Shown: piece after piece, positions 33,069 through 59,916 of the stretch
Layout of the letters: the number at the start of each line of letters is the position of its first letter
How positions within the stretch are numbered: position 1 is the stretch's first letter
DNA from: an uncultured Pseudomonadota bacterium
Lineage (GTDB): Bacteria; Pseudomonadota; Gammaproteobacteria; Xanthomonadales; Rhodanobacteraceae
Length of the DNA: 64,000 nt
Direction: 5' to 3'
NCBI GenBank assembly: GCA_963711075.1
Contig: CAVQCW010000008.1
Span: 37,136-101,135 of the forward strand
Notes under the pieces: generated by a model
What the model was told of the DNA's origin: nothing
What the model saw: the letters and a program-made list of their open reading frames with translations, nothing else
The model's database searches: none
Made by a program: the position numbers and the translations under genes

Positions 33069-33084
33069 TGCGGCACAACGTCGC

Positions 33085-33750: not shown

Positions 33751-33754
33751 ACTC

Positions 33755-38560: not shown

Positions 38561-38570
38561 GCTGCGCCAA

Positions 38571-46500: not shown

Positions 46501-46566
46501 CATCCCTAGCGTGCGTCTGTCCACCCGCATTCTCCCGATTTCAGCACCGGGGATATTCTGCCGCAT
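43501..46566 (-). CDS. Secreted TPR-repeat / CHAT-domain (caspase-fold) protein
   Basis: Signal peptide (LGMCVILLALAAPAHA), long TPR-like helical repeats, and C-terminal CHAT catalytic dyad contexts ILHFATHGVY and WAVLSACETALG. The start may be ATG 46530. Confidence 0.85.
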   Translation of the reverse strand: MRQNIPGAEIGRMRVDRRTLGMCVILLALAAPAHARRSDMAHADVHASGVAGADTTGPLSIDALAQRIDAELADYRVDTDAVAVEALARRELALRVRHDGSGSLAYAHALSRLGFALAARNANDAAAAQFERAWKIVAELGQSAGAREHALANINLGFARRNQRTHFAEAIELIRKGLSRRDALAPLERARAQSWLVMPLLYSGKPGDAAQALDQAAASLAQAHVPNHPLQAELLRLRVPLLHEKGRFAEAMRFGERAVTVAAAAKPYSPAIHVATLHTRAQLEEANHNTVLARRFFERELAVEAKYPVLGGFSAAMANYELCNTLAPAGQVRDAEPHCQAAVAGLEALPSPPAFELASAYATLAYVLGDLGQVAGEDRAARRSLNYAERTGLHTPWVFGAETALGQVLRLQGRYAQAEAVYRKHLGRFPPHADFSSQNPAATLNGLAGALWGEGKLDEAFIVAERAERSAALVRTAAATDLDEHRAMTGIGGIPGGIERMLAIASITRDQAQLRAVWQAVLESNGLVSAIAARRLANARAARDPTLVPLWRDWQARNKVLALARVALARSPGEAEYAQFIAANGAFDASELKLAAASGEVGRRLALRQRSIGDVLAALSADTVLASFTENAADRPQGYAQSDRAQKLLRVLVGRRGCPVRLLTLGDADVVSQVAARWYRLASDPTADAARLSEASRTLRQLVWDPLAAATSGSRILIVPSASIERVNFAALERNDGQFLVESGPRFQFLNRERDLLLPPAHRPHSLLLAGAPDFVAGVGVATRGDCLGLRSAPFQPLPGARSELDELSRLAAGQHLDRVLLTGAAATEARVRTAVLDAGILHFATHGVYLGQHCGAADTARTSRGVITVDTAASGLAVPRAPLAALAFSGANRGSADSADDGLLTSDEIAGMDLSKVDWAVLSACETALGQTTAHEGVLGLQHAFHLAGVRSVIMSLWRVDDLATGQFMQSLYRARLQRHASTIDAMHTAMRDTLVARRHAGQSTRPFYWSGFIAAGDWR

Positions 46567-46765: not shown

Positions 46766-49240
46766 CTACGGAGCGCAGGCAAAGCCTAGGCTGCTGTCGA
46801 AATCGTGCGCGAAGATCGTGTCGTCGACGAAGCACCCGGACATTTCCGAAGTGTTGCCGTCCACATCTGTCGCCGTCGCGCCAATTCGGCAGTACTGATC
46901 CGGGCCGCTGCCCGGCCCGCGCCCGATGGTCAGAGTGAAGTTCGCCGTACCGCCACCGAACGGCGCGATCAGCGGTCGCGCATCGATGCTCAGCACCATA
47001 GCGGCCTGGGCGCGACCAGCGTTGCCGCACTGCGCCGCGCCGAATACCTCGATGCGCGTGCCGCTGCTGATGTAGATGCTGCCGCTGAGCAGTCGCGCTC
47101 CGGCGGTATGCCGAATTGCAGTCAACACCGGGAAATTCTGAAATCCGTTTGCGCCACTGTCGCTATCAGTCGCATCGTTCGCCGTCGGCCCGTCGGCGCC
47201 GAGGTCGATCGCCTGACCGTAGTTGGAATAAATCAGATTGCCACTGATGCGATTGCCGCTACCGGACTCGATTGAAACACCACCGGAGCCGTTGCCTGGC
47301 CCGCCGACGCCGTTCAGGCCGTTGCCGACGATGACGTTGCCGGCGATCAGTCCATGCGCATCGAGACCGATGAGATTACCGTTCGCAGTCGATATCGCGC
47401 GCACGCCGGCGCCATAGTTACTCGCTGAATCCACTCCCTGCACGGCCGGCAGGCCGATGATGTTCGCCGTCAGCACGTTAACTTGCGGATAGCCCATGAA
47501 TGTGGCGTTGCCCTGCAGTTGCACACCCTCGTTGCCGCTGGCCGCGATGAAATTGCCATCGAGCAGGTTGTAGGCCGAAGACACGATCACGCCGATCCCG
47601 TTACCGGCGGCATCGCTTCCGTTCGGGGCCAGGCCGATGTAATTGTTGCGCAGCTCGTGCCCACCATAGTTTCCGATCAACGACACACCGTACACGCTGG
47701 ACCCGTCGAAGACATTTCGCTGCTGCGGATCGATGCCGCCGACGTAGGAGTTCGCCGAATCCTGGCGCAGGCGCAAGCCGCGCGCGTTCGCCTCCAGGGT
47801 CAGGCTGCCGGACGCGCCAACCGCCAATATGCCACCGAACTGGTTGCCTTCGATGATATGACTGTCGCCGTCGCTGATGTCGATGCCGGCAATGCCGAAG
47901 TTGGCAAATGCCAGCCCGCGCACAGTGAGATGACTGTTCAAGTCGGTCGCAGTCAGGCCGGTGCTGTTCGCGTAGTTCCCGCGCAGGATCACGCACAAGC
48001 GCGCATCGCTGCCGATCGTCCTGGTATTGGCACTGGAACCGGGTTGGGTGTAGCCGTCGATTGTCAGTGTGTCGACAACTTCAGGCAATGCCGATGACAC
48101 GTTGACGATCTGCGGGCACGATGACAGGTTGAATACGATGCGTTGCGCATTCGCCGCCTGCGCCGCCGAGGTCAGCGCCTCGCGCAGACTTCCCGTGCCG
48201 CTGTCGGCATTCGTGGTCACTGTCAACGTGGCCGAATCGTCCACGGGGCTTTCATACGCGCCGCGATCCGGCGCTGTGCCGATCACGCGCGCATTGCCAC
48301 CGGCATCCGTCGCGCCAAGACCTCCGGGAACAGAAATCGTGCCGCTGTTGATCGCCGGCGAACCGGGCACAATGGGTATGTAGTTTGAATCGAGCTGCGG
48401 ATCGGCGTTGCTGTTGCCGGTCGAACCACTGGCCAACGCAACATTGTTGGCGTTGACCAGACTTTGCCAGTTGTTGTGCGTGGCCAGCACCTCCGGCGCG
48501 TGGTTGATGCGAATCCCGCCCGTCGCGTTGTTCCACAGCGCGTTGTTCGCCAGCACGATGTGCAGGCTCAGCCCCGATCCGGGCTCTTCCAGATTCAGCC
48601 CGTAGCCGTCAAGTATGTATTCGTTGCTGCTACCGACTGCTGCATTGACGAAGGTGTTGTTGATCACGTGCCAGACCTTGCTGGTGGCCTCGCTCGTGTC
48701 GCGGTTCAAGATCTCGACGTTCTTGCCGTCGAACACGTTGCTGTCCAGCAGCACCGATCCCGACGAACCCTCTACGCGCAGCGCGTCGTTACCCTGGCCG
48801 CCAGTGAACACGTCATGGCGCATCTGCGTATTCCCGGCGGCGATGTCGAAGATTGGCACCCGATGGAAACGGATGCCGTCGAGGGTCAACGTATGCCCTA
48901 CGTGAAATAACATGAATTGGGTGTTGCCGCCGTCGATCACTGTGTTGAACGGGTTCAGCGTGCGCTGCGTGCAGCCTGCGTTCCATCCGCCGTCAAGCTC
49001 CAGCGATTCCTCACTGAACAGGTTGACGATGCCGCTCAGCGCATACGTGCCAGCAACGAGGTGGATCTGATCGCCCTGACCGTCACCCTCCGCGGCGATC
49101 AGCGCTGCGCCAAGCTCGCCGCTGTCGTGAACACAGAAGACGCCGGCATGGGCGTTGTGGGCCGCAAGGCACAGTACCGCTGCCGCGAATGTGCGAATCG
49201 GCCCCGGCCGTCGGGATGATGTGCGATCACTCATTTCCAC
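46766..49240 (-). CDS. Secreted right-handed parallel beta-helix repeat protein (paralog A, 824 aa)
   Basis: Signal peptide and an N-terminal FCV...LGAAL..A...I.L.AGTYAL module. Many G-N-x-I/V-G beta-helix turns. C-terminal GANGFQNFPVL...TSEMS...IFAHDFD. AGGAGA RBS upstream. Confidence 0.8.
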   Translation of the reverse strand: MEMSDRTSSRRPGPIRTFAAAVLCLAAHNAHAGVFCVHDSGELGAALIAAEGDGQGDQIHLVAGTYALSGIVNLFSEESLELDGGWNAGCTQRTLNPFNTVIDGGNTQFMLFHVGHTLTLDGIRFHRVPIFDIAAGNTQMRHDVFTGGQGNDALRVEGSSGSVLLDSNVFDGKNVEILNRDTSEATSKVWHVINNTFVNAAVGSSNEYILDGYGLNLEEPGSGLSLHIVLANNALWNNATGGIRINHAPEVLATHNNWQSLVNANNVALASGSTGNSNADPQLDSNYIPIVPGSPAINSGTISVPGGLGATDAGGNARVIGTAPDRGAYESPVDDSATLTVTTNADSGTGSLREALTSAAQAANAQRIVFNLSSCPQIVNVSSALPEVVDTLTIDGYTQPGSSANTRTIGSDARLCVILRGNYANSTGLTATDLNSHLTVRGLAFANFGIAGIDISDGDSHIIEGNQFGGILAVGASGSLTLEANARGLRLRQDSANSYVGGIDPQQRNVFDGSSVYGVSLIGNYGGHELRNNYIGLAPNGSDAAGNGIGVIVSSAYNLLDGNFIAASGNEGVQLQGNATFMGYPQVNVLTANIIGLPAVQGVDSASNYGAGVRAISTANGNLIGLDAHGLIAGNVIVGNGLNGVGGPGNGSGGVSIESGSGNRISGNLIYSNYGQAIDLGADGPTANDATDSDSGANGFQNFPVLTAIRHTAGARLLSGSIYISSGTRIEVFGAAQCGNAGRAQAAMVLSIDARPLIAPFGGGTANFTLTIGRGPGSGPDQYCRIGATATDVDGNTSEMSGCFVDDTIFAHDFDSSLGFACAP

Positions 49241-49255
49241 TTCGTTCTCCTACAT

Positions 49256-49335
49256 TCTGTTGAAAAAGGGCTGTCCCGCCCTTTTTCAGTCGCTCCGCGC
49301 GGGCCGAGCCCGCGAACGTCGCTACGCGCATCAAT
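49256..49335. repeat. 80-nt intergenic repeat, copy 1 (contains two hairpins)
   Basis: 78/80 identical to 49412-49491. Both differences fall in hairpin loops. Confidence 0.9.
49262..49287. terminator. Bidirectional terminator-like hairpin gaaaaagggc-tgtccc-gccctttttc (inside repeat copy 1, only about 20 nt upstream of the paralog-A start)
   Basis: Perfect 10-bp stem, with an A-tract 5' and a T-tract 3' on both strands. Confidence 0.45.
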
Positions 49336-49411
49336 CACTTGCGTCATTGACCCGCGCGCGATCCGTCCATGGATCGCATTAGCAGGTTGTTTTTCAACAA
49401 TCTGCTAGAAG

Positions 49412-49491
49412 TCTGTTGAAAAAGGGCTGTCCTGCCCTTTTTCAGTCGCTCCGCGCGGGCCAAGCCCGCGAACGTCGCTACGCGCATCAAT
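49412..49491. repeat. 80-nt intergenic repeat, copy 2 (abuts the stop codon of the 49487-49885 gene)
   Basis: See copy 1. The offset is exactly 156 nt. Confidence 0.9.
49418..49443. terminator. Bidirectional terminator-like hairpin gaaaaagggc-tgtcct-gccctttttc, 44 nt downstream of the minus-strand gene ending at 49487
   Basis: Perfect 10-bp stem followed by a T-run on the minus strand. Confidence 0.55.
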
Positions 49492-49885
49492 GCGCATGCG
49501 TCGAAGTCGACTCCTTTTCGATGCGCCAGTGCCCGCCTTCCTTGAGCATGTGCACACTGGAAGTCGACGGATTGCCGGCGCTGTCCTTGCCGCTGACGCT
49601 CAAGGTGGCGTCGTTGCCGTGCGTGTCGACCTTTTCCACCTTGGTGTCGTGCAAGGCATTGCCGCGGATGAAGCCGAACATCATCTGGAATTGCGGGCTG
49701 TCGCGCTGGGCCTGCAATTCGGCTGCACGCGCCTTGGTCATGGTGGCCTCCATCGCGTCGATATCGCCCTTGCTCATGGCGACTTCGTAACTGCGATAGA
49801 CGGTTTCCTGTGGGCTGGCGGCGGCCTGTGCAACAGATGTGGCCAGTACGGTCACGAGGGCAACAAAATAGATGCAACGGTGCAT
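49487..49885 (-). CDS. Small secreted protein (DUF4878/SnoaL-like fold guess), paralogous to the C-terminal domain of the 50120-50974 lipoprotein
   Basis: Signal peptide VALVTVLATSVAQA. KGDIDAMEATMTK...ATLSVSG...MLKEGGHWRI parallels KGDIAAMAKSMTR...ATLTLRG...MRRENGAWRF in the neighbouring gene. Confidence 0.65.
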   Translation of the reverse strand: MHRCIYFVALVTVLATSVAQAAASPQETVYRSYEVAMSKGDIDAMEATMTKARAAELQAQRDSPQFQMMFGFIRGNALHDTKVEKVDTHGNDATLSVSGKDSAGNPSTSSVHMLKEGGHWRIEKESTSTHAH

Positions 49886-50119
49886 GATCGACTCCTCTGG
49901 GTGTTTGTCTTCCTATCGAATGCGCAACCAAGGGAAACCGAACGCAGCATTGCCCTTGATTGCCGGATCTGAATAGCGCCGAATCTCAGCAAGTAATAAA
50001 TGACGAAGTCACCCTGCCGCGTCATTCCCGCATGCTTTTGGCAGGTTGTTGAAAAACAATCCGCTTAGGGGTGCGCTGACAAAGAGCAGGACAGCGCTGT
50101 TTCAACAGACGTTTGGCGG

Positions 50120-50974
50120 TCAATCAGTGGTCTGGTCGACGAATCGCCATGCGCCGTTCTCGCGCCGCATGGTTGCATGCGCGCCAGTGCCGGCGCTGGC
50201 ATCGACGTGCGTGCCGCGCAAGGTCAACGTCGCGCGATCACCCTTGAACGAGCCGCTGACGAATTGCGGATTTTGCAGGGCGACGAATTGCATATAGTCC
50301 AGGGTTGTCTTGAAGTTGTCGCGTTTGCGATCGACCAATAATTGATCGCCATCCTTGCGCGTCATGCTTTTCGCCATCGCCGCGATGTCGCCCTTGGCCA
50401 AGGCCTGCGCATAATTCAGGTATGCCTTGAACGCCTCGCCACCATCCGCCGGCAATGGCGTTTCGGCTGGCGGCAGGGACAGAGCAAAATGCAGATCGAA
50501 ATATTCGCCTTCGGTCTTGCCTGCTGCGTTGTTGCTGCGAAGGCTGCCTTCGACGCGCTTGTCATCGTTGCGTTTTATCGTCAATGTGCAGCAGGCATCG
50601 CCGAATGCGACGTCGTGCAGCTCGTCTCCCAGGGTTTCGATACGCTGCAAGCTGGCATCCGGATTCAGATACATCACCACGGCAGTCGCTTGCTTGTCGT
50701 CCAGCTCGCGCCTGACCGCCATCGGCATATCAAATTGCTGCTTTTGATCCAGCGCCGCTGCATCAATGGGTTTATCGCTCAACACGATCACCGTCGATGC
50801 TTTCAATGCCTCGGCCGAGTTGGCACGTGCCGCTTGGTAGCGATACGCATAGGCGCCAACCAATGGATAAGGTTTGCCGCCCGCATACAGCATTCCGGAC
50901 CCGCCAGAAGCCTTTGCGGCGCATCCCGCCAGCAACAGCGCACCCAAGGTCAACCCGCACTTGAATGGGTTCAT
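50120..50974 (-). CDS. Lipoprotein, two domains of unknown function
   Basis: The lipobox LLLAGC follows MNPFKCGLTLGA. The start is set at 50974. Confidence 0.7.
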   Translation of the reverse strand: MNPFKCGLTLGALLLAGCAAKASGGSGMLYAGGKPYPLVGAYAYRYQAARANSAEALKASTVIVLSDKPIDAAALDQKQQFDMPMAVRRELDDKQATAVVMYLNPDASLQRIETLGDELHDVAFGDACCTLTIKRNDDKRVEGSLRSNNAAGKTEGEYFDLHFALSLPPAETPLPADGGEAFKAYLNYAQALAKGDIAAMAKSMTRKDGDQLLVDRKRDNFKTTLDYMQFVALQNPQFVSGSFKGDRATLTLRGTHVDASAGTGAHATMRRENGAWRFVDQTTD

Positions 50975-51055
50975 GATCGTCTCCGCATTGTGATTCTTGA
51001 TAGGCCTGATGAACGCACGAGCGCGCAAAATCGAACGCGGTCGTGCTATCAAGGG

Positions 51056-52078
51056 CTACTGGAAGCCGTTGGCAAACAGCACCTCGGATTCGTAGGCGCC
51101 GATATCGACGTGTTTGCCGATCAGGCGTTCGCCAAAGGCCAGGTCCTCGCTGCCGATGCCGCCATAGGGCGTATCCAGGCCGGCGTTGATCAGACGTGAT
51201 TTGAGTCCGGGATGCACGCTCAGCAAGCCGAACTGTGGATCCACGCTCAGTGCGTTGCTTTCGCTGGCCGGCGGAAATCCATCGCGCACGCCGATATCGT
51301 TGTTGGAGAAATTCGCGGCCCCGCTCTGGTCATACAGATCGTTGCCCTCGTTGTTCCACAGCAGATTGTTGCTGATGTAATACGTGCCACTACCGGCCAG
51401 ATCCAACGCGCCCAGTCCCACATGATTGGCGAGCTGATTGCCGACAATCGTGTTGTTGTTCAGATCGGCGATGCCGTCGTTGACCAGATAAAGCGTATTG
51501 GTGCCCTGATTGGCGTAAAACAAATTGTTCCGCATCAAGATCGTGCCGGGGGACGAAACAAAGATTGCTCCGCCGGAATTGGTGGCTGGCACGCTGTTCG
51601 CGACAAACGAGTTGTAGTCGATCGCGACGACAGCGCCGGCTGGTCCGGTGACGTTCAGCGCGCCGCCGGCGTATTGCGCGGGATTGCCGTGCGCGAACGT
51701 GAGCCCGAAAATGCTGACATTGCCGTTCGCGTCGATGTACAACGGTCGCACCGCGTTCTGTCCGTCGAGTACGCTGCTGCCCGAGGTTGCGCGCACATTG
51801 CAGCCTGGTGCCCAGCCGCCGTTAATCGCCAGAGCATAGGTTTCGGAGGTCGCGGCGAAATAGTCGAGTTCGCCGCCAAGATTGTAGGTGCCGACTTCGA
51901 GCTGGATGAAATCGTCTTCACCGTTGTTTTGTGCAACGAACAATGCAATAGCCAACTGCAACGGGGTACTCACGCAGGTGACCGCGGCAAATGCCGGCGC
52001 CCAACCCAACACACCAGCTATGAGCAGCAGCGGACTGAAAAATCTTGCGTTGAATGGGCTAATGCGGCGAGCGTTCAC
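51056..52078 (-). CDS. Secreted parallel beta-helix repeat protein (paralog D, 340 aa, GTG start)
   Basis: Signal peptide and a TCVSTPLQLAIAL..A....I.L.VGTYNL module. It ends ...VLFANGFQ-stop. GGAGA RBS 5 nt upstream. Confidence 0.8.
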   Translation of the reverse strand: MNARRISPFNARFFSPLLLIAGVLGWAPAFAAVTCVSTPLQLAIALFVAQNNGEDDFIQLEVGTYNLGGELDYFAATSETYALAINGGWAPGCNVRATSGSSVLDGQNAVRPLYIDANGNVSIFGLTFAHGNPAQYAGGALNVTGPAGAVVAIDYNSFVANSVPATNSGGAIFVSSPGTILMRNNLFYANQGTNTLYLVNDGIADLNNNTIVGNQLANHVGLGALDLAGSGTYYISNNLLWNNEGNDLYDQSGAANFSNNDIGVRDGFPPASESNALSVDPQFGLLSVHPGLKSRLINAGLDTPYGGIGSEDLAFGERLIGKHVDIGAYESEVLFANGFQ

Positions 52079-52390
52079 TTCCGTCTCCGGTGCCGAACCT
52101 GACCATATGAATGACCGATGACGGCAAAACCGAACGCCGCTTCAGCCGATTTGCGCTTCGGATCGCAGCAACATCGCCACCAATGTCACCACACATTTGT
52201 ATGCATCCATGATGCGTCTCCTCAGTCGCTGATTCGACCTTTGCGGACATGAATGCGCCAACGCGACAAAACGAACGCGATCTCGATTCACCGCAATTCG
52301 ACACAATCCGGCGCAACGACGCGTTGAATCGCCGCGTTCGCTTTTTTGCCATCGCGCATTCCTTGTGATCGGATCACAGGAGTATGCGAA

Positions 52391-53734
52391 ATGAGACCCA
52401 ACATCCCAGCTGTTCTGAGTCTGATTCTCGTCCTCGCCATCGCGCCGCGCGCTCGCGCCGACGTCTGGGTACCGCGAGCGCAGACATTTGGCGGTGTTCC
52501 GGGAGCGCACATGGGCACGAGCGTCGCGGCTGGTGTCGGTGTCGACCCGCAAGGTCACCTGATCATCAACCGGGTGTATGTCGGTCAACCGGATGCCGAC
52601 GGCCCGAGTGGGCAAATCGGTGCCGGCTCCGTGCAAATCTACAACCTGGGGCCAAACGGCTGGGTGTTTGCCGCCAATTTGTTCTCGAACCAGGTCCAGG
52701 CGGGCGCACACTTCGGCGCCAGTCTGGCCTACGGCTCCGGTCACCTTGTGGTCGGCGCGCCCGATTACAACGATGTCGGCGGGACAGGTGCCAACGCCGG
52801 ACGGGTCGAATTCTATTTCGACAATGGCGCGAGTCCACTGAACCTGTCGTACAAGGGGTCGCGTACCGGAGGCGGCGGCAATTTCGGCAGCGCGGTTGCC
52901 GTCAACGTGGATATGGCGGCGATCGGCGAGACGGGCGGCAGCGGCGATGGCTGCGTCTCGGCCTTTCATTACGATTTGGGCACGGGCACCTGGACCAATC
53001 TGCCGGCTGTCAACGACATCGTCTGCGGCAGCACCGGCGCAGCGCTGGGAACATCGGTGGCAATCCTGCGCACCAGCGCGACGAGTTTTTTGCTGGTCGC
53101 CGGTGCGACGGGCGAATCGCAGAATGCCAATTCGCTGGCGGGCGCCGCGCATGTGTACATACCGAACCCGAATACGACGACCGGAGGATTTGTCGAAGTC
53201 GGCACGCTCGCCGCCAACAACCCCGCAGCGTTCGATTTTTTCGGTACCAGCGTCGGCATCGACGCGAACTTCATCTATGTAGGCGCCACCGGTCGCGACA
53301 ACGGCGCAGGCCGCGTCGGCTCGGTGACGATTTTCAAACCGGCCTCGATTATCGGCTACAACTATCTGAGCGAATACTTCCCCAGCGCGCCGGCGACAAT
53401 TGGCGGACTTTGCGGAGCATCGCTGAGCGTCGACGCCGCCAACTCGCAATTCATCATGGGCTGCCCCAATAGCGCGAGTCCCTACTTCGCCCACGAAGGC
53501 ACGGCGCGTGTGTATCGGCAGATCGATTTCCTCGGCAACACGGTGTGGCTGGACAGTGTGCTCAGCTTCGGCACCCAGCCGCACAACGGCGATGACGCGC
53601 TGGGCAGCAGCGTGGCGATATTGGGCAATGAAGCCATCGTTGGCGCACCCGACTCCCACTATTCCGGGCAATCCGGCAACGGCGTCTGGAAGACGTTCGT
53701 GACGGACAAGATCTTCGCCAACGGCTTTCAGTGA
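52391..53734 (+). CDS. Secreted FG-GAP (integrin-alpha-like beta-propeller) repeat protein
   Basis: At least six repeats of FG.S(V/L)A....(L/I)VGAP.....G.G.V..F type, a signal peptide, and an AGGAG RBS. It ends ...KIFANGFQ-stop. Confidence 0.85.
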   Translation: MRPNIPAVLSLILVLAIAPRARADVWVPRAQTFGGVPGAHMGTSVAAGVGVDPQGHLIINRVYVGQPDADGPSGQIGAGSVQIYNLGPNGWVFAANLFSNQVQAGAHFGASLAYGSGHLVVGAPDYNDVGGTGANAGRVEFYFDNGASPLNLSYKGSRTGGGGNFGSAVAVNVDMAAIGETGGSGDGCVSAFHYDLGTGTWTNLPAVNDIVCGSTGAALGTSVAILRTSATSFLLVAGATGESQNANSLAGAAHVYIPNPNTTTGGFVEVGTLAANNPAAFDFFGTSVGIDANFIYVGATGRDNGAGRVGSVTIFKPASIIGYNYLSEYFPSAPATIGGLCGASLSVDAANSQFIMGCPNSASPYFAHEGTARVYRQIDFLGNTVWLDSVLSFGTQPHNGDDALGSSVAILGNEAIVGAPDSHYSGQSGNGVWKTFVTDKIFANGFQ

Positions 53735-53743
53735 GGTGCGACG

Positions 53744-55684
53744 ATGAAGGTTCTGCACATCGCGTTCGCAACCGCGTTGCTCGGTATTGCCGGCAGCGCT
53801 GCGGCAATGGACATCACGGTCACACGCCTCGACGATCCGGCGCCGGTCGCCTGCACACCGACGGATTGTTCGCTGCGCGAGGCGGTGTTGCTGGCCAATG
53901 CCAGCGTTGGTGCGGACACGATTCATCTTGGCGCTGGCGCCTACCAGCTCACGATTGCCGGTGCCGGCGAAGACCTTTCGGCATCCGGCGATCTGGACGT
54001 ACGCGACGACTTGACTATCGTCGGCGCCGGCCAGAGCCAGACCAGCATCGTCATGACAGGGCAACTCGATCGCGTGATCCAGCTTTACTACGATCAAAAC
54101 ACCGGTGTCGCACACACGCTGAACCTGCAGGATCTGTCCGTGTCGGGTGGTTATGCACACAGCAGCGATCCTCTCGATTCCGACAACCTGGGTCGCGGCG
54201 GCTGCATTTTTGCCGTCGGTGAGATGAACCTTACCAATGTGACGATCGGCAATTGTCAGGCGGACGATGCCGGCGGTCTGCACCTGGGTTTTGGCAATGC
54301 GTCTTCATTGCAAAACGTCATCATCACCGGCAATAGCGCGCTGCATGGTGCTGGCGGAGCGGAAATTCTGAGCTATTCAGCACCCGCCAGAATCAGCCAC
54401 CTCACGGTCAGCAACAACATCGTCAGCGGCTACGACTCGACCAATCCAAGGTTTGCCGGCGGACTGTATGTGTACATGAGCGGTGCCGGCGCCAACCTCG
54501 ATCATGTCAGCTTGATCAACAACTCGGCGCAGAAGTGCGGAGGTGGAGAAATCGCCGTCGACGGGCAGGCGCAGCTGTCAGACTTCACGGTCACCGGCAA
54601 CACCGCATATGGTGCTGGCGGTGGACTGTGCCTGGCGCAAACCATTCACGACGTTTCCGCGGACATGTATCGATTCAGCGTCACCGGCAATTCTGCCACG
54701 GGCGACGGCGGGGGCATTCTCGTTCTGCTCGACGCGAATTATCCGGTAAACACGTCGCTGCGGCTGCACAATGCCAACATCGCTGACAATACTGCCCAGC
54801 AAGGCAGAGGCGGCGGCGTGTCGTTTCCGTATTGCTTCGGCTGCGCATTCAGCGCACCCGTCAGCCGATCCCTTACGTTGCTCGACTCGACACTCAGCAA
54901 CAACAGCGCGACCGCGATGAGCATCAACGACGGCGAAGGATTCGGCGGCGGAATCTTCAGCCAGTTTTCAATCAAAGCGCTGCGCTCAACATTTGCAGGC
55001 AACCAGGCCGCGTTTTTCGGCGGCGGTATTTGTGTTGAGGCCTTCAGCAACAACGGTCTGCCCACTGGCACAAACTCAATCCAGTCGAGCACGTTCAACT
55101 CCAATACAACGGCTCAGACGTCCCCACTCGCTGGCGGTGGTGCCATCTACGTTCAGTCAACCGGTCTGACCATCGACAGCAGCACGTTCGACAACAACGC
55201 CGGACCCAATGGCGGCGTGCTTTTCAACTACGCCGCCTATGTCTATTTGTACCGCAGCACGCTGGCGGCAGGCAGCAACACACCGCCGGGTGCCGTGGGC
55301 ACGCTCGTCGAAGCACAAGGCGACGGCACCACCACCCCGGCGACAAACATCCTCAACAGCGTACTCAATGGCAATTGCCACGGCGTGATGCCGAATGGAT
55401 CGACGCCGGGCAATCTGGCCGTTGGCAGCAACAGTTGCGGCAGCAGCTATGTCTTGAACGAGAGCTCATTGCATCTGGGCGCACTCGCCGATAACGGCGG
55501 TCCGACGCAGACGCGCTTGCCCGGCGCCGGCAGCACGCTGATCGGCTTTGCCAATGCGACGTATTGCGCCACGTTCGATCAGCGCGGATACGTGCGTCCG
55601 AATTCGGCGACCTGCGATACCGGTGCTGTGCAAACAACCGCCATCGACGACGTGATCTTCCGCAACGGGCTTGAGATCAATTGA
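53744..55684 (+). CDS. Secreted choice-of-anchor-Q / polymorphic-membrane-protein-like repeat protein
   Basis: Signal peptide, TRLDDP...CTPTDCSLREAVLLANA module, then repeated (F/V/L)..N.A ... GGG(I/L) Pmp-like units. It ends ...VIFRNGLEIN-stop. Confidence 0.82.
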   Translation: MKVLHIAFATALLGIAGSAAAMDITVTRLDDPAPVACTPTDCSLREAVLLANASVGADTIHLGAGAYQLTIAGAGEDLSASGDLDVRDDLTIVGAGQSQTSIVMTGQLDRVIQLYYDQNTGVAHTLNLQDLSVSGGYAHSSDPLDSDNLGRGGCIFAVGEMNLTNVTIGNCQADDAGGLHLGFGNASSLQNVIITGNSALHGAGGAEILSYSAPARISHLTVSNNIVSGYDSTNPRFAGGLYVYMSGAGANLDHVSLINNSAQKCGGGEIAVDGQAQLSDFTVTGNTAYGAGGGLCLAQTIHDVSADMYRFSVTGNSATGDGGGILVLLDANYPVNTSLRLHNANIADNTAQQGRGGGVSFPYCFGCAFSAPVSRSLTLLDSTLSNNSATAMSINDGEGFGGGIFSQFSIKALRSTFAGNQAAFFGGGICVEAFSNNGLPTGTNSIQSSTFNSNTTAQTSPLAGGGAIYVQSTGLTIDSSTFDNNAGPNGGVLFNYAAYVYLYRSTLAAGSNTPPGAVGTLVEAQGDGTTTPATNILNSVLNGNCHGVMPNGSTPGNLAVGSNSCGSSYVLNESSLHLGALADNGGPTQTRLPGAGSTLIGFANATYCATFDQRGYVRPNSATCDTGAVQTTAIDDVIFRNGLEIN

Positions 55685-55703
55685 GCGGTCATCAGGCCTG
55701 ACC

Positions 55704-57287
55704 ATGACCAGCATGTTTGCAATGACGCTCTGTGACGTTCGTAACACTGGTCGCAACGTGTCGTTCGCGTTGCTGATGTCAGCGGCTGGCGTCGCACAAG
55801 CCACCACGTTCACCGTTGTCTCCAGCGACGACCCAACGCCCGCAGGTTGCACGCCGACGCATTGCTCGTTGCGCGAAGCGATTGCAGCCGCGAATGCCGA
55901 TACCAGCGCGCCGCAAACGATCGACTTCGCGATACCCGGCGCCGGACCGCATACGCTCAACGTCACCAGCCAGCTTCCGGCCATCACACGCAGCACCACC
56001 ATCGACGGCTTCTCGCAGGCCGGCACGGCGACGAACACGAATTCTCCGGACCAGGGCGGACTCAATGCTGTTCTGCAGATCGAGATCGTCGGCGCGGGCG
56101 GCTTTGGCTTTATCGTCGGCACCAGCAATGGCATCAGCGTGACAGTTCAGGGTCTGGCCATGCACGGGTTCAGTACACCCATTGCCGGCGCCGGCGGCAA
56201 CGGCGGCAGTTCGCAGTTGAACGTGTTCGGCAATTATCTGGGCACGACGATTGACGGCGCGTCGCTGGGCGCAAGCCCGGGCAATACCGGCAGCGACATC
56301 AGTTGCGCAAACAGCCCGATCCAGATCGGCGGCCAACAAGCCTGGCAACGCAATCTGATTTCCGGATCCGGCGGCGCGGCGATATCGATCGGCGGACCGG
56401 CAATCGTCGAAGGCAATCTGATCGGTACCGATGCCAGCGGCACGCTGCCGATCGCCAACGGCATCACCGGCAACAATGCCGCGATCACGATCTCCACCTA
56501 CTATGCGCCGATCCGCATCGGCGGCGCCTTGCCCGCATCGCGCAACGTGATCTCCGGCAACCATACCTGGGCGATTTCCGTCGGCGCACCCAGTGGCATC
56601 GCCAACCATGACGGCCTGGAAATCAAGGGCAATAACATCGGCACGGACTGGAGCGGACTGCAGGGATTGCCGAACGGTTACGAAAATCCGCTCTACGCAC
56701 AATACGGCGGCGGCATCCAGCTCGCCAACGCCGGCAGCGATCCGAATCCGGCGACCATCGGTGGCTTTGGAGCTGGAGAAGCAAACCTGATCGCCTACAA
56801 CCGCGGTGCGGGCATATCCGTCACCTACAACACCGCCGGCGAAAATTTCGACAACCGGGGCAACGCGATTCATCACAATCGCGGCGTCGGCGGTACCAAT
56901 GTCGACATCGGCGCATTCGGCAAGACGCCGAACGATGCCGACGATGCCGATTCCGGCGCAAACGGTGTGCAGAATTACCCGGAAATTCTCTCGTCCAGCC
57001 AGTCCGGCGACCAGTTGACGGTGACCTACGTCGTCGACACCGCAACGACGAACGCGACCTATCCGCTGCGCATCGATTTCTATGCCGACGTGCAAGGCGG
57101 AAGCGGCGAACTGTTGGCCGAAGATTTTTATGCGCTGAGCGACGCGCAGCAACCGCGCACGGTAACGCTGAACTTGCCCGCTGGCGCCAAGGCGATTCCA
57201 TTCGTGGCCGCCGCCACAGATGCCAATGGCCGCAGCAGCGAATTCTCGCCGGCGGCGGATGTCATCTTCGAAAACGACTTCGAATAG
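55704..57287 (+). CDS. Secreted choice-of-anchor-Q / beta-helix protein
   Basis: SSDDP..GCTPTHCSLREAIAAANA module, beta-helix repeats, and C-terminal GANGVQNYPEIL...RSSEFS...VIFENDFE-stop. The start (ATG 55704) is moderately uncertain. Confidence 0.8.
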   Translation: MTSMFAMTLCDVRNTGRNVSFALLMSAAGVAQATTFTVVSSDDPTPAGCTPTHCSLREAIAAANADTSAPQTIDFAIPGAGPHTLNVTSQLPAITRSTTIDGFSQAGTATNTNSPDQGGLNAVLQIEIVGAGGFGFIVGTSNGISVTVQGLAMHGFSTPIAGAGGNGGSSQLNVFGNYLGTTIDGASLGASPGNTGSDISCANSPIQIGGQQAWQRNLISGSGGAAISIGGPAIVEGNLIGTDASGTLPIANGITGNNAAITISTYYAPIRIGGALPASRNVISGNHTWAISVGAPSGIANHDGLEIKGNNIGTDWSGLQGLPNGYENPLYAQYGGGIQLANAGSDPNPATIGGFGAGEANLIAYNRGAGISVTYNTAGENFDNRGNAIHHNRGVGGTNVDIGAFGKTPNDADDADSGANGVQNYPEILSSSQSGDQLTVTYVVDTATTNATYPLRIDFYADVQGGSGELLAEDFYALSDAQQPRTVTLNLPAGAKAIPFVAAATDANGRSSEFSPAADVIFENDFE

Positions 57288-57358
57288 CGCCGCGTTTCAT
57301 CACGCTGGTAAGATGCACGCATGGCACACTCGCTGCCGCGCACTTGCCGGAGCCTTGC

Positions 57359-57820
57359 ATGAAACGACTGCTGCTGTTGACCTTGTTGATCGCCACCAGC
57401 GCGTTTGCCGCGACCGGCCCCTACAATCCAAAGGCTGATGCAAATGCCGATGTGCAGCGCGCGCTGACCAAGGCCGCAGCCGACCACGAACCCGTGCTGC
57501 TTTTTTTCGGCGCGAACTGGTGTGAGGATTGTCGCGCATTGGCCAAATCGCTCGAAGCCGGCAAGAACGCTGAACTGATGGCCACGCATTTCAATATCGT
57601 CAAGATCGACGTCGGCAATTTCGACCGCAATCTCGACGTGGTGAAACGCTTCGGCAATCCGATCAAGAAAGGCATTCCCGCCGCAGTGATCGCATCGTCG
57701 CACGGCAAAGTGCTGTACTCGACCCGCGCCGGCGAATTGTCCTCGGCTCGCCACATGAGCGATCAAGGCGTGTACGACTTTTTCACCAAGGCCATCGCAC
57801 GCATAGAAAAGAAGACGTGA
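57359..57820 (+). CDS. Periplasmic thioredoxin-fold protein (CxxC = WCEDC)
   Basis: Signal peptide, then VLLFFGANWCEDCRAL, typical of Thioredoxin_7-like proteins. Confidence 0.8.
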   Translation: MKRLLLLTLLIATSAFAATGPYNPKADANADVQRALTKAAADHEPVLLFFGANWCEDCRALAKSLEAGKNAELMATHFNIVKIDVGNFDRNLDVVKRFGNPIKKGIPAAVIASSHGKVLYSTRAGELSSARHMSDQGVYDFFTKAIARIEKKT

Positions 57821-58081
57821 AGATGCAAATCCAGTTGGTCTGATTCGTGGAACATGTCGGTCCCGGCGGGTGCCATCGTCAGATGCCCGGTGAGTTGTCC
57901 GTCGGAGCGCTTCATGGCGCTGGGATTGACCGGACCTGGACCGCCCAGACCGCGACGCTCCATCGCCGAATGCGAACGGCAATCGCGCCGACAGGTTGCT
58001 GAAAATGCTCCGTAGTGTGCGCCATGCGCACGTTCTTGCACCATCGTGTCCGCATGCACGCCAAACCCATCATGTCCAGCG

Positions 58082-58558
58082 CTATGGCTGCTTGACGTGA
58101 AAGCGCAGATCAATCTGCACCGGCTCATCGAAAACGGTTGCCCCGGGCCGGGTATACAAATGCCCGCTGATGAAGCCGCCACTGATTTTGACGTCATTGA
58201 CCCAGACCAGACCGGAATTGCTTGATCCGGAATGCTTGAGTGCCGAATGCCAAGGCTCGCATCCGATGACATTCCAATCGGTGCCGGACCCGGACACCCT
58301 GATCGACAGCGCGTCGCCAAGATTGCCGAATTGCGCATCCATGCGCGCGTCTGGATCATGACTGGCATCCTTCTCGCTGAAGACCAATTGGATAACGGGC
58401 TTGTTGTCGAATGGCTTGCCTTTCAGCGCAACGAGATAATTGAGCTTGCCGCTTTTGCCATTGGCGCCAAAGGTTCCATGGAACGGTGTGGCTGCAAACA
58501 GGTCTGCACTTGCCAGAACCAACAGGCCAAGAACAGCGAAATGAATTGTGCGCGGCAT
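58082..58558 (-). CDS. Secreted hypothetical protein, distantly similar to the N-domain of the 50120-50974 lipoprotein
   Basis: Signal peptide FAVLGLLVLASADLFA. The start is set at MPRTIHF. No family recognised. Confidence 0.55.
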   Translation of the reverse strand: MPRTIHFAVLGLLVLASADLFAATPFHGTFGANGKSGKLNYLVALKGKPFDNKPVIQLVFSEKDASHDPDARMDAQFGNLGDALSIRVSGSGTDWNVIGCEPWHSALKHSGSSNSGLVWVNDVKISGGFISGHLYTRPGATVFDEPVQIDLRFHVKQP

Positions 58559-58723
58559 GATTGATTTCTCTCGATTGAAGAAGGAAAGCGCAATGGGTCC
58601 AATAGCTCTCCGACACGCAGACAAATGTGCAATAGCGACGAAACAATCGCTGCTGTCGACGAATCGGCGCGAGGCGGAGCATTCAGTATGCGTGCGCTAC
58701 GCGCCTGCGTCGGTCACGCTTGC

Positions 58724-59758
58724 TCACGGCCCGAAACCGTCTCGAAAAATGAGGTCGGCATTCTCAAACGCGCCGATGTCGATGTGCGCGCCAACGATGC
58801 GTGGCCGGAACGCCAGATCAAGCGTACCGACGCCGTAGCCGGGGGCGTCGTTGCCCGCGTCGATGAGCAGCGATGTGCTGTCCAGTTCGTAGTTGCCACA
58901 GCCCACGCCGCAATCGACGAAGCGCGGATCGACGCTCACGTTGCCGCTGGCGGCATCGGGTATGGCCATGGTACCGCCGACGATACCGAGATCGTTGTTC
59001 AGTCGACTGTGCGCCGCACCGGCGTACAGGTCGTAACCGCCGTCGTTGGTGTTGCCCCACAGGATATTGTTGGCAAGGGTGAAATGCGCATTGCCGGAAA
59101 TCGCCAGGCCACCGGTGTTCTGCCCAGCCTGATTGCCGTTGTCGGCGACGGTGTTGCCAATCACGTACGCCTCGCCAGCGCCCTGGTAAAGCGTGCCGGC
59201 ACCGAAATCGAACGCCGTATTGCCCACGACGAGATTGTTGGCGAACGAGATCTGGCCATGTTCGGTGCCCACGCTGAGGCCGCCACCAAGACTGCCTGCA
59301 TTGTTCGCGAAGCGGCTCAGGCCGATCAGGATGTTGCCGTTGCTCGAATACGCGTACAGTCCCGCGCCGCCATTGAGATCGTTGACAGAACCGTTTTCGA
59401 AGCCCATGCGCGATATCGCGACCGCGCCATTGCTGTTGGAAACAGACAGCGCGCGATACAGATTCTGGCCGTTCAGGATCGACAAGGTTCCGGTCAGGGT
59501 CGAGCAAGTCGCATCGACGCCACCGACCAGGGTCAGCGCGTAGGCCTGTGTTGAATCGAATTCCAGTCCGGCGCTCAAGTTGTACGTGCCCGCGACGACG
59601 TAGACGATATCGTTGTCGTTATCGGTTTGCGCTGCGGACAACGCGGCAGCAAATTGCCCTGGATTGGATACGCAAAACGTCGCCGCCGATGTCGTCGCGA
59701 AGGCGCCGAACGCGCCGGCGCATGCGGCGATTGCCTGAAGTTTTCTCATGGTGTTCAT
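58724..59758 (-). CDS. Secreted parallel beta-helix repeat protein (paralog H)
   Basis: Signal peptide and an FCVSNPGQFAAAL..A....I..V.AGTYNL module. It ends ...LIFRDGFGP-stop. Confidence 0.8.
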   Translation of the reverse strand: MNTMRKLQAIAACAGAFGAFATTSAATFCVSNPGQFAAALSAAQTDNDNDIVYVVAGTYNLSAGLEFDSTQAYALTLVGGVDATCSTLTGTLSILNGQNLYRALSVSNSNGAVAISRMGFENGSVNDLNGGAGLYAYSSNGNILIGLSRFANNAGSLGGGLSVGTEHGQISFANNLVVGNTAFDFGAGTLYQGAGEAYVIGNTVADNGNQAGQNTGGLAISGNAHFTLANNILWGNTNDGGYDLYAGAAHSRLNNDLGIVGGTMAIPDAASGNVSVDPRFVDCGVGCGNYELDSTSLLIDAGNDAPGYGVGTLDLAFRPRIVGAHIDIGAFENADLIFRDGFGP

Positions 59759-59916
59759 GGCCGGTTCCAGCCAGCGGACTTGGCCATACAAATGCACAAG
59801 CGCGCAAAAGCGAACGCCACCATGCCCGCGGAAGGCGACAGCCTGGCAAACGTTTGAGCGTCACCTGTTGGCCGTGCGGTGATACAGTGGCGCGCAACCC
59901 AGTCCGGAGCACCGAC

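What the first reader, a model, noticed from the sequence alone, without database searches (positions are those of the whole stretch)
46766..59797. Six secreted proteins end in a shared C-terminal (I/L)F-x-(N/D/H)-(G/D)-(F/L) motif that I cannot assign to a known sorting signal
The C-termini read from the translations are:
- A (46766-49240, minus strand): ...DDTIFAHDFDSSLGFACAP
- D (51056-52078, minus strand): ...SEVLFANGFQ
- E (52391-53734, plus strand): ...TDKIFANGFQ
- F (53744-55684, plus strand): ...DDVIFRNGLEIN
- G (55704-57287, plus strand): ...ADVIFENDFE
- H (58724-59758, minus strand): ...ADLIFRDGFGP

The proteins belong to three unrelated fold families (beta-helix, FG-GAP propeller, Pmp-like/choice-of-anchor-Q). 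All have Sec signal peptides. In three of them the motif is the literal end of the protein, and in two more only two or three residues follow it.

A short motif shared at the extreme C-terminus by otherwise unrelated secreted proteins is how PEP-CTERM, LPXTG and T9SS CTD signals were first recognised. This one is not hydrophobic-helix-plus-basic, so it is not an exosortase- or sortase-type signal.
Basis: seen in the sequence. Interest (0 to 1): 0.65.

Follow-up and report, generated by a model that had tools for sequence, protein, structure and literature searches.

The report
Unannotated short tail tag on secreted proteins
Six exported proteins in this cluster end in the same short flexible tail (I/L-F-x-D/N-G-F), which recurs on many otherwise unrelated secreted proteins in one branch of Lysobacterales and, as a longer 19-residue form, in Acidobacteriota; no curated family describes it and its function is untested.

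Summary
The strict motif occurs six times in all six reading frames of the window (0.5 expected), each time 1-10 residues before the stop of a long exported ORF.

It is conserved in 72 of 73 homologues of protein D. It replaces LPXTG or PEP-CTERM-like tails at the same position in homologues of protein F. AlphaFold2 predicts it as an undocked, low-confidence tail.

A DNA scan of GTDB genomes with no stop codon in the pattern gave 102 in-frame matches. In 35 the motif lies 0-6 residues before the stop (Dokdonella, Tahibacter, Aquimonas, Rhodanobacteraceae). In 18 it lies exactly 13 residues before the stop, as IFADGFESGDTSAWSxxVP (Thermoanaerobaculia, Holophagae and others).

No Pfam or NCBIfam model covers the tag, and no paper carries the motif strings. 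About one in six occurrences in these lineages is internal or N-terminal, so a free C-terminus is not required.

In seven of seven related loci, tagged genes flank a conserved trio: ECF sigma factor, Ser/Thr kinase with DUF4384, and an exported TPR-CHAT protease.

Best reading: a portable recognition tag for exported extracellular proteins, read by an unknown partner. The sorting function is not shown.

The parts
46766..49240 (-). Protein A (824 aa): a D-like module (aa 8-333, with choice-of-anchor Q at 289-331) fused to a G-like module (aa 351-815). The tag IFAHDF lies at 46799-46816, with 10 residues after it.
51056..52078 (-). Protein D (340 aa): an exported beta-helix with a weak choice-of-anchor Q match. 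The tag LFANGF lies at 51062-51079, followed by Q and the stop.
52391..53734 (+). Protein E (447 aa): an exported FG-GAP propeller. The tag IFANGF lies at 53711-53728, followed by Q and the stop.
53744..55684 (+). Protein F (646 aa): a CSLREA-like N-terminus, Pmp-type beta-helix repeats and choice-of-anchor Q (aa 577-630). The tag IFRNGL lies at 55655-55672, followed by EIN and the stop.
55704..57287 (+). Protein G (527 aa): a CSLREA-like N-terminus and beta-helix repeats. The tag IFENDF lies at 57264-57281, followed by E and the stop.
58724..59758 (-). Protein H (344 aa): a paralogue of D. The tag IFRDGF lies at 58733-58750, followed by GP and the stop.
43501..46566 (-). Exported TPR-CHAT protein (clan CD, caspase-like) with a signal peptide and His and Cys motifs (HFATHG, LSACET) visible in the sequence. 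It lies directly downstream of A and is a conserved neighbour of tagged genes.
33028..33750 (+). ECF-type sigma factor, the first gene of the conserved trio.
   Evidence: same gene order in L128-L134
33719..35359 (+). Ser/Thr protein kinase with a DUF4384 domain, the second gene of the trio.
35456..43114 (-). RND efflux operon (two AcrB-type pumps and a membrane-fusion protein) lying between the kinase and CHAT. It is absent from that position in the related loci and is not part of the feature.
49487..51052 (-). Two exported proteins without the tag, inside the cluster: one of 132 aa, and one of 310 aa with a lipoprotein-type LAGC site.
   Evidence: no families found
57344..58624 (.). An exported thioredoxin-like protein (57344-57820, + strand) and an exported 180-aa protein (58082-58624, - strand). 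Both lack the tag.

Best explanation
The tail is a portable, unstructured short linear tag. Its consensus is [DE]-x-[ILV]-F-x-[DN]-G-[FL]-[DEQG], followed by 0-6 residues. It is attached to Sec-exported, extracellular-type proteins (beta-helix adhesin-like proteins, FG-GAP propellers, proteases) in the Rudaea / Dokdonella / Tahibacter / Aquimonas branch of Lysobacterales.

It is the short form of a 19-20 residue tag, [ILV]F-x-DGFE-x-G-x-x-x-x-WS-x-x-[VS]P, used in Acidobacteriota and a few other lineages.

I propose that, after export through Sec, a lineage-specific protein partner binds the exposed peptide through its three conserved hydrophobic positions. The partner then routes the protein out of the periplasm or keeps it at the cell surface, probably in connection with type II secretion. 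This would be peptide-in-groove recognition, as with PDZ or TPR domains. It would not be cleavage by a membrane-embedded sortase, because the tag has no membrane helix.

Shown: the motif, its terminal enrichment, its conservation, its lineage range, its position equivalent to known anchors, its predicted flexibility, and its restriction to exported proteins.

Inferred: that it is read by a partner, which partner that is, and what the outcome is.
For: 1. Enrichment. Six hits in the window against 0.5 expected, all at ORF ends. In a genome-wide scan with no stop codon in the pattern, 60 of 102 in-frame matches lie within 20 residues of the stop. The distances are bimodal, at 0-6 residues and at 13 residues. 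A second pattern gave the same two classes.

2. Selection. 72 of 73 D homologues, down to about 30% identity, keep aliphatic-F/L-x-x-x-F/L/V/Y three residues after DIGAYE. 66 of them have only 1-4 residues after the motif.

3. Anchor position. F homologues carry, directly after choice-of-anchor Q, either the short tag, the long tag, LPXTG or PEP-CTERM-like tails.

4. Fusion protein A lost the D-type tag at the internal junction and kept a tag only at its real end.

5. AlphaFold2. The short tag of D has pLDDT 64 against 85-98 for the body. The long tag of P0111 has pLDDT below 50. Neither is docked on the fold.

6. 42 of 53 tagged ORFs with a complete N-terminus have a signal-peptide-like start by a crude rule. 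Exported but probably periplasmic or lipoprotein neighbours in the window lack the tag.

7. The D fold's best PDB match is Rhombotarget A. A CSLREA protein is type II secretion-dependent in Acinetobacter baumannii. GlyGly-CTERM proteins are type II substrates retained at the cell surface. The PDZ domain of EpsC selects one type II substrate.
Against: - No reader protein was identified, and no experiment exists.
- About 12 of roughly 72 occurrences in the tag-bearing lineages are internal or N-terminal. Classical C-terminal sorting signals never behave this way.
- In L037 and L049 the long form runs straight on into a domain of about 200 residues. It may therefore be that domain's first beta-strand.
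- The link to type II secretion rests only on homology of the cargo proteins to known substrates in other genera.
- The presence of a type II system, or of a PDZ-bearing GspC, in these genomes was not checked.
Confidence: 0.4

Rival explanations
1. The tag is the ligand or substrate of the neighbouring exported TPR-CHAT protease. Two versions are possible. In the first it is a reporter peptide that the ECF sigma / kinase / TPR-CHAT module senses, as DegS senses outer-membrane-protein C-termini. In the second it is a cleavage or transpeptidation site, sortase-like, as PorU and GPI transamidase are among clan CD enzymes.
For: - The trio of ECF sigma, kinase with DUF4384 and exported TPR-CHAT is contiguous in L128-L134. 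It is present in the window, split by an efflux operon.
- In seven of seven loci of the tag-bearing lineage, a tagged gene lies within three genes of CHAT. About 26 tagged genes occur in about 116 kb, against about 7 in about 156 kb of flanks around random tagged seeds.
- Mini-proteins of 83-100 residues, consisting of a signal peptide, a short unassigned stretch and the tag, sit directly downstream of CHAT in L130 and L132.
- A periplasmic TPR-CHAT is the proposed protein-sensing domain of the anti-sigma factor DdvA.
- TPR domains classically bind short terminal peptides (established knowledge).
Against: - Most tagged genes found by the genome scans are not next to a CHAT gene. The D orthologue in Dokdonella fugitiva has none within 10 kb.
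- Adjacency is equally explained if the tagged proteins are simply the regulon of the sigma factor.
- The D/N position varies (R, T, S and G also occur), which argues against a strict Asp/Asn P1 site.
- With 0-1 residues after the motif there is almost no leaving group.
- L134 has the trio but no tags.
- The seven loci fall into about three or four synteny classes, so they are not independent.
Confidence: 0.15
2. The tag is a structural element rather than a signal. It would be the first beta-strand (short form) or first hairpin (long form) of a MAM / concanavalin-like beta-sandwich domain. It would be kept as a stub that pairs with another beta-sheet, for oligomerisation or docking to a partner domain, or would simply end the preceding module.
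For: - In L037 and L049, IFADGFESGxLxxWSA... continues directly into a domain of about 200 residues, after a signal peptide or a Pro/Thr linker.
- The MAM-type domain of L010 begins with a similar string (FTEGFEAGATGWT).
- The NCBIfam model of rhombosortase-dependent M36 peptidases aligns across the MAM end and part of the tag region, at model positions 1140-1181 of 1315.
Against: - AlphaFold2 does not dock either form on the preceding fold.
- The tag follows at least three unrelated domain types in the window, and more in the scan.
- In the Lysobacterales internal cases, a Pro/Gly-rich linker follows the motif before the next domain starts. There it is not that domain's first strand.
- An evolutionary stub would not keep a fixed distance to the stop across homologues down to about 30% identity.
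Confidence: 0.15
3. There is no shared function. The six tails would be inherited from one ancestral C-terminal segment by duplication within the cluster, or would be a by-product of composition.
For: D and H are paralogues. A is built from D-like and G-like parts. Some copies therefore share ancestry.
Against: - E (FG-GAP) shows no family match in common with the beta-helix proteins.
- The same tag ends S8 and M14 peptidases, Sortilin/PKD proteins and many others in other genomes.
- Background internal hits occur at the chance rate, while terminal hits are more than tenfold above it.
Confidence: 0.03

Closest known systems
GlyGly-CTERM / rhombosortase (VesB of Vibrio cholerae, Rhombotarget A of Acinetobacter)
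   Same: It is a C-terminal tag shared by unrelated Sec-exported proteins. The cargo is homologous: F and G have a CSLREA-like N-terminus, and the D model's best PDB match is Rhombotarget A 9cdv. Those cargos are type II secretion substrates retained at the surface.
   Different: GlyGly-CTERM is Gly/Ser-rich, followed by a membrane helix and a basic tail, and is cut inside the membrane. The tag here is 7-20 residues, acidic and aromatic, with no helix. It also tolerates internal positions.
LPXTG/sortase and PEP-CTERM/exosortase signals
   Same: They occupy the same position directly after the choice-of-anchor Q domain in homologues of F. They show a many-cargo, lineage-restricted distribution.
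   Different: Both need a hydrophobic helix plus basic residues and a strictly terminal position. Neither feature is present here.
T9SS C-terminal domain (PorU-processed)
   Same: It is a non-membrane C-terminal signal on Sec-exported extracellular enzymes and adhesins. Its processing enzyme, PorU, is a clan CD peptidase, the same clan as the neighbouring CHAT (established knowledge).
   Different: The T9SS CTD is a folded beta-sandwich of 70-100 residues, confined to the Bacteroidota / FCB group. Here the element is a 7-20 residue disordered peptide in Gammaproteobacteria and Acidobacteriota.
Outer-membrane-protein C-terminal YxF peptide sensed by the DegS PDZ domain; PTS1 (SKL) read by the PEX5 TPR domain
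   Same: These are short exposed terminal peptides with conserved aromatic or hydrophobic residues, read by a peptide-binding domain. That is the recognition mode proposed here.
   Different: Those motifs must be the last three residues. Here 0-6 (or 13) residues follow, and the last residue is usually D, E, Q, G or P. No reader is known.
DdvA-DdvS (periplasmic TPR-CHAT anti-sigma factor with its ECF sigma, Myxococcus xanthus)
   Same: An ECF sigma gene lies next to a large extracytoplasmic TPR-CHAT protein with a His-Cys dyad, which is proposed to sense a periplasmic protein signal.
   Different: Here the TPR-CHAT protein has a cleavable-looking signal peptide rather than an N-terminal zinc anti-sigma domain and a membrane helix. 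A Ser/Thr kinase with DUF4384 lies between it and the sigma gene.

Membership tests
LPXTG sortase signal | LPXTG pentapeptide followed by a hydrophobic helix and a basic tail at the extreme C-terminus | tested here: not met
   The tails are 7-19 residues, with no LPXTG and no hydrophobic stretch. True LPXTG tails are seen in Actinobacteria / Chloroflexi homologues P0137, P0140, P0145 and P0189.
PEP-CTERM / exosortase and GlyGly-CTERM / rhombosortase | Short signature motif followed by a transmembrane helix and an Arg/Lys cluster | tested here: not met
   No helix or basic cluster follows the motif. No NCBIfam sorting-domain model hit any of the six proteins at E<=0.01, apart from a weak partial match of F's N-terminal region to TIGR04212 (rhombotarget A; 25.1 bits against a cutoff of 295). 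None hit a 49-residue long-tag peptide at E<=1.
T9SS C-terminal sorting domain | Folded C-terminal domain of 70-100 residues matched by the Por secretion tail models | tested here: not met
   No such Pfam or NCBIfam match. The conserved element is 6-19 residues and is predicted disordered.
Outer-membrane beta-barrel C-terminal beta-signal | Terminal aromatic residue (usually Phe) as the last residue of the last barrel strand | tested here: not met
   The last residues are P, Q, Q, N, E and P. D is a soluble beta-helix in the model.
choice-of-anchor Q domain proteins (NF041518) | Match to NF041518 at or above the curated 25-bit cutoff, lying just before the C-terminal anchor | tested here: met
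   F scores 56.4 bits (aa 577-630). A scores 33.5 bits (aa 289-331, internal because of the fusion). H scores 23.1 and D 18.5 bits, both below the cutoff but at the homologous position. E and G lack the domain.
CSLREA / Rhombotarget A-like beta-helix proteins | TIGR04214 CSLREA N-terminal domain at or above 25 bits; RbtA-like fold | tested here: inconclusive
   F scores 20.9 and G 21.7 bits, both below the cutoff. The literal CSLREA string is present in both. The D model against 9cdv_B gives E 3.9e-5 and TM 0.42.
Type II secretion substrates | Export dependent on GspD/GspE; no sequence definition exists | not testable with these tools
   Only an indirect link is available: a CSLREA protein is T2SS-dependent in A. 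baumannii, and VesB is T2SS-dependent in V. cholerae.
TPR-CHAT proteases (neighbouring gene 43501-46566) | Pfam CHAT domain with the His-Cys dyad, preceded by TPR repeats | tested here: met
   PF12770 scores 187.5 bits and TPR_12 46.4 bits. HFATHG and LSACET are read in the sequence. Protease activity on tagged proteins was not tested.

The most novel reading that the evidence does not exclude
The tag is a true new class of post-Sec sorting signal: a short, non-hydrophobic, position-tolerant peptide shared by two phyla. Its reader is the exported TPR-CHAT caspase-like protein encoded beside the tagged genes. That protein would act either as a sortase-like processing enzyme or as the sensor that couples the load of tagged proteins in the periplasm to the ECF sigma factor / kinase pair.
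Probability: 0.12. Interest if true: 0.9.

Novelty: new variant of a known kind. Interest (0 to 1): 0.62.

Why it matters
Shared C-terminal tags on unrelated secreted proteins have repeatedly led to the discovery of sorting machines: sortase, exosortase, rhombosortase and PorU.

This tag marks a large share of the extracellular proteins sampled here, roughly 1 in 20 genes in the flanks examined. It does so in environmentally abundant but poorly studied groups: the Dokdonella/Rudaea-type Lysobacterales of wastewater and soil, and the Thermoanaerobaculia and Holophagae.

No curated family describes it, so these proteins are currently annotated without any localisation cue.

A regular expression or small HMM for it would immediately improve secretome prediction in these lineages. 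It would also give a concrete handle, through phylogenetic profiling and tag-deletion reporters, on how proteins with no membrane anchor are selected for export or surface retention. That is the long-standing open question of substrate recognition in type II-like secretion.

Tried and rejected
- **Motif strings in the literature.** Searches for FADGFE, FRDGFE, GFESGD, GDTSAWS and similar found nothing relevant. One search was swamped by the herbal name 'Fangfeng'. A search for C-terminal motif / Xanthomonadales / type II secretion found nothing specific.

- **Tag peptides against curated families.** Pfam and NCBIfam scans at E<=1, using long-tag peptides and the domains that follow internal copies, found no model for the tag. 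The only relevant match was partial, to the M36 peptidase models.

- **The L037 domain that begins with the motif.** A PDB sequence search gave no meaningful hit.

- **Recurrent neighbours.** All-against-all BLAST of ORFs from the 120 scan loci found only regulators (CadC-like proteins with TPR, Ser/Thr kinases with TPR) and CHAT. No secretion or sortase-like gene turned up.

- **CHAT relatives from a single-protein query.** The search for related loci returned only two TPR-only matches and cost one scan. The CHAT neighbourhoods were obtained instead through the search for homologous proteins and the look-up of encoding contigs.

- **Asp/Asn-specific cleavage.** I considered a cut after position 4 of the motif, as by caspases or legumain, and downgraded the idea because that position varies in D homologues.

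- **Recombination site or scar at the DNA level.** Rejected, because codon usage differs between the copies.

- **The search of protein representatives.** Not used. A profile of 10-19 informative columns cannot reach significance against 1.8 billion sequences.

Full report
**1. The observation**

The strict expression [ILVM]F.[NDH][GD][FL] matches exactly six times in the six-frame translation of the window. The matches lie 1, 1, 1, 2, 3 and 10 residues before the stops of A, D, E, F, G and H. Composition predicts 0.5 matches. Codon-shuffled windows gave a mean of 0.47 and never more than 4. The chance that six uniformly placed motifs all fall in the last 16 residues is about 1e-9. The codons of the six copies differ, so selection acts on the peptide, not on the DNA.

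All six proteins begin with signal-peptide-like sequences. This was read from the sequence; no predictor was available.

**2. What the tag is attached to**

- NCBIfam finds the choice-of-anchor Q domain (NF041518) ending just before the tag in F (56.4 bits). H (23.1 bits) and D (18.5 bits) match at the homologous position but below the 25-bit cutoff. A matches at an internal position (33.5 bits, aa 289-331).
- F and G carry a CSLREA-like N-terminus. E is an FG-GAP propeller.
- A is a fusion. Residues 8-333 align with D up to GAYES. Residues 351-815 align with G up to the tag. The D-type tag is missing at the internal junction and is present only at the true end of A.
- The AlphaFold2 model of D (mean pLDDT 91) is a beta-helix whose best PDB match is Rhombotarget A, 9cdv.
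- Exported neighbours in the window lack the tag: a lipoprotein-like 310-residue protein, a thioredoxin-like protein, two small proteins, and the TPR-CHAT protein.

**3. Conservation**

Of 73 homologues of D (Dokdonella, Rudaea and metagenomes, down to about 30% identity), 72 keep the motif. In 62 of them the motif starts three residues after DIGAYE.
- Position 1 is L, V or I in 71.
- Position 2 is F or L in 71.
- Position 5 is G in 56.
- Position 6 is F, L, V or Y in all 72.
- Position 4 is N or D in 51, but R, T, S and G also occur.
- 66 homologues have only 1-4 residues after the motif.

Two distant homologues carry a longer tail at the same place: LFKDDFEEGDTSAWSTTVP and LFLDSFEDGDSLAWSATVPPP.

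**4. The anchor position**

Among homologues of F, the segment directly after the choice-of-anchor Q core (CD.GA.E) takes several forms:
- the short tag;
- the long tag (P0080, P0104, P0111, P0113, P0132);
- an LPXTG signal with a membrane helix (P0137, P0140, P0145, P0189);
- a PEP-CTERM-like hydrophobic tail (P0090, P0107);
- in Chloroflexi, another short motif, [YF]LP[LIV][ILV]xR.

The tag therefore occupies the place that established sorting signals occupy in other lineages.

**5. Range and positional bias, tested without a stop codon in the query**

102 matches lie in frame in long open frames. Their distances to the stop were:

| Residues between motif and stop | Matches |
|---|---|
| 0-6 | 35 |
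| 12-15 | 21 (18 at exactly 13) |
| other distances up to 20 | 4 |
| more than 20 | 36 |
| runs off the locus | 6 |

Sixty of 102 within 20 residues of the stop compares with about 6% expected (binomial p about 3e-46).

- The 0-6 class comes from Dokdonella, Tahibacter, Chiayiivirga, Denitratimonas, Aquimonas, and Rhodanobacteraceae and Lysobacterales MAGs.
- The 13 class reads IFADGFESGDTSAWSxxVP. It comes from Thermoanaerobaculia, Holophagae, other Acidobacteriota and a Polyangiaceae MAG.

A second pattern, for LFR[DN]GF, had more background, because that hexapeptide is conserved inside LysE-type exporters and aminotransferases. It still reproduced both terminal classes. The loci whose titles were listed came from the same lineages as before, plus a 'Candidatus Multivoradales' MAG.

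In 204 kb of Lysobacterales loci the strict motif is terminal 27 times and elsewhere 13 times. Six of those 13 are real internal copies, and the remainder is close to the chance rate.

By a crude rule, 42 of 53 tagged ORFs with complete N-termini start like signal peptides. The cargo includes S8 and M14 peptidases, a reprolysin-like metalloprotease and Sortilin/PKD proteins.

**6. Not strictly terminal**

In the tag-bearing lineages roughly one occurrence in six is not terminal.
- In Dokdonella and relatives, the motif, followed by a Pro/Gly-rich linker, precedes an extra domain of 180-200 residues (L030, L071, L076, L083, L079/L082).
- In L037 (Vicinamibacteria) and L093 (Thermoanaerobaculia), the long form opens the mature protein just after the signal peptide.
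- In L049 (Chloroflexota), it follows a Pro/Thr linker inside an RHS protein and runs on into a domain of about 200 residues.

This is why I describe it as a portable linear module, not a classical C-terminal signal.

**7. Structure**

AlphaFold2 gives the last ten residues of D a pLDDT of 64, with no secondary structure, against 85-98 for the body. It gives the long tag of P0111 a pLDDT below 50. Neither form is docked onto the preceding fold.

**8. Is it known?**

No Pfam-A or NCBIfam model covers the tag. This holds both for the six whole proteins and for a 49-residue long-tag peptide scanned at E<=1. The only relevant hit is a partial alignment to the rhombosortase-dependent and myxosortase-dependent M36 peptidase models, across the MAM-domain end and the first half of the tag. 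Full-text searches for the motif strings found nothing relevant.

I cannot exclude a description in a source not held in this library.

**9. Genomic context**

The window encodes an ECF sigma factor (33028-33750), a Ser/Thr kinase with DUF4384 (33719-35359) and an exported TPR-CHAT protein (43501-46566). An RND efflux operon lies between the kinase and CHAT.

The same trio is contiguous in L128, L129, L130, L131, L132, L133 and L134. In all seven loci of the tag-bearing lineage, tagged genes lie within three genes of CHAT:
- window: six tagged genes;
- L128: four of eight genes;
- L129: seven;
- L130: five;
- L131: three;
- L132: one;
- L133: two.

That is about 26 tagged genes in 116 kb, compared with about 7 in 156 kb of flanks around randomly found tagged genes. 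The loci fall into only three or four synteny classes, so this is suggestive rather than statistical proof.

L134, from another lineage, has the trio but no tags. The D orthologue of Dokdonella fugitiva has no CHAT gene within 10 kb.

A periplasmic TPR-CHAT domain is the proposed protein-sensing part of the anti-sigma factor DdvA in Myxococcus. The simplest reading is therefore that the trio is a signalling unit and the tagged proteins are its regulon. A direct role of CHAT on the tag remains possible but is not supported beyond adjacency.

**10. Mechanism**

The conserved positions are three hydrophobic residues around a turn-forming x-[DN]-G, flanked by acidic residues, in a disordered tail. 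That is the profile of a short linear motif bound in a groove, as with PDZ or TPR domains. It is not the profile of a membrane-embedded sortase substrate.

The cargo families are homologous to type II secretion substrates that are surface-retained through GlyGly-CTERM in Vibrio and Acinetobacter. The PDZ domain of the type II component EpsC is needed for one such substrate.

I therefore rate as most likely (about 0.4) that the tag is a recognition tag that routes or retains exported proteins outside the cell through a lineage-specific reader, probably linked to type II secretion.

The rivals are:
- a ligand or substrate of the TPR-CHAT module (0.15);
- a structural first strand of a beta-sandwich domain, used for strand pairing (0.15);
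- no shared function (0.03).

The rest is unassigned.

**11. Verdict**

The tag is unannotated in the curated libraries available here. It belongs to the known kind 'shared terminal tag on secreted proteins' but differs from every defined member: it has no helix, no folded domain, and it tolerates non-terminal positions. Its function is not demonstrated.

Noticed in passing
window 33028-35359 and 43501-46566; L128-L134: A conserved trio of ECF sigma factor, Ser/Thr kinase with DUF4384 and exported TPR-CHAT protein. It resembles the DdvS/DdvA system but has a separate kinase and a signal peptide in place of an anti-sigma domain. In the window an RND efflux operon (35456-43114) sits between the kinase and CHAT.
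   Followed up: partly
window 46766-49240: Protein A is a fusion of a D-like module and a G-like module. The tag and the signal peptide that would lie at the junction are gone, and only the terminal tag remains.
   Followed up: yes
homologues of F: P0097, P0141, P0143, P0152, P0163, P0170, P0172: Chloroflexi-type homologues end, directly after choice-of-anchor Q, in a different short motif, [YF]LP[LIV][ILV]xR followed by 0-3 residues. This may be another undescribed terminal tag.
   Followed up: no
L130 13028-13279; L132 5995-6297; L123 11037-11195: Mini-proteins of 52-100 residues that end in the tag; the L130 and L132 ones also start with a signal peptide and end ...CLADLIFRDGFEGLE. The L130 and L132 copies lie directly downstream of the CHAT gene.
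   Followed up: no
L016, L044, L072, L076, L079, L083, L122; L130 18005-20395: Membrane-bound CadC/ToxR-like winged-helix regulators with TPR domains recur close to tagged genes in Dokdonella and Tahibacter loci. Ser/Thr kinases with TPR domains do so as well.
   Followed up: no
L037 (Vicinamibacteria), L093 (Thermoanaerobaculia), L049 (Chloroflexota): The long form IFADGFESGxxxxWS also occurs at the start of mature proteins, or after a Pro/Thr linker inside an RHS toxin. In L037 and L049 it leads into a domain of about 200 residues with no Pfam match.
   Followed up: partly
L071, L076, L083 (last ~200 aa); L079/L082; L030 (last ~185 aa): Three different unannotated C-terminal domains follow internal copies of the motif in Dokdonella-type genomes. 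They have no Pfam or NCBIfam hits.
   Followed up: partly
window 57344-57820: An exported thioredoxin-like protein sits inside the cluster of tagged genes. The tagged beta-helix proteins have conserved Cys residues near the mature N-terminus (FCV, CSLREA), so disulfide handling may be relevant.
   Followed up: no
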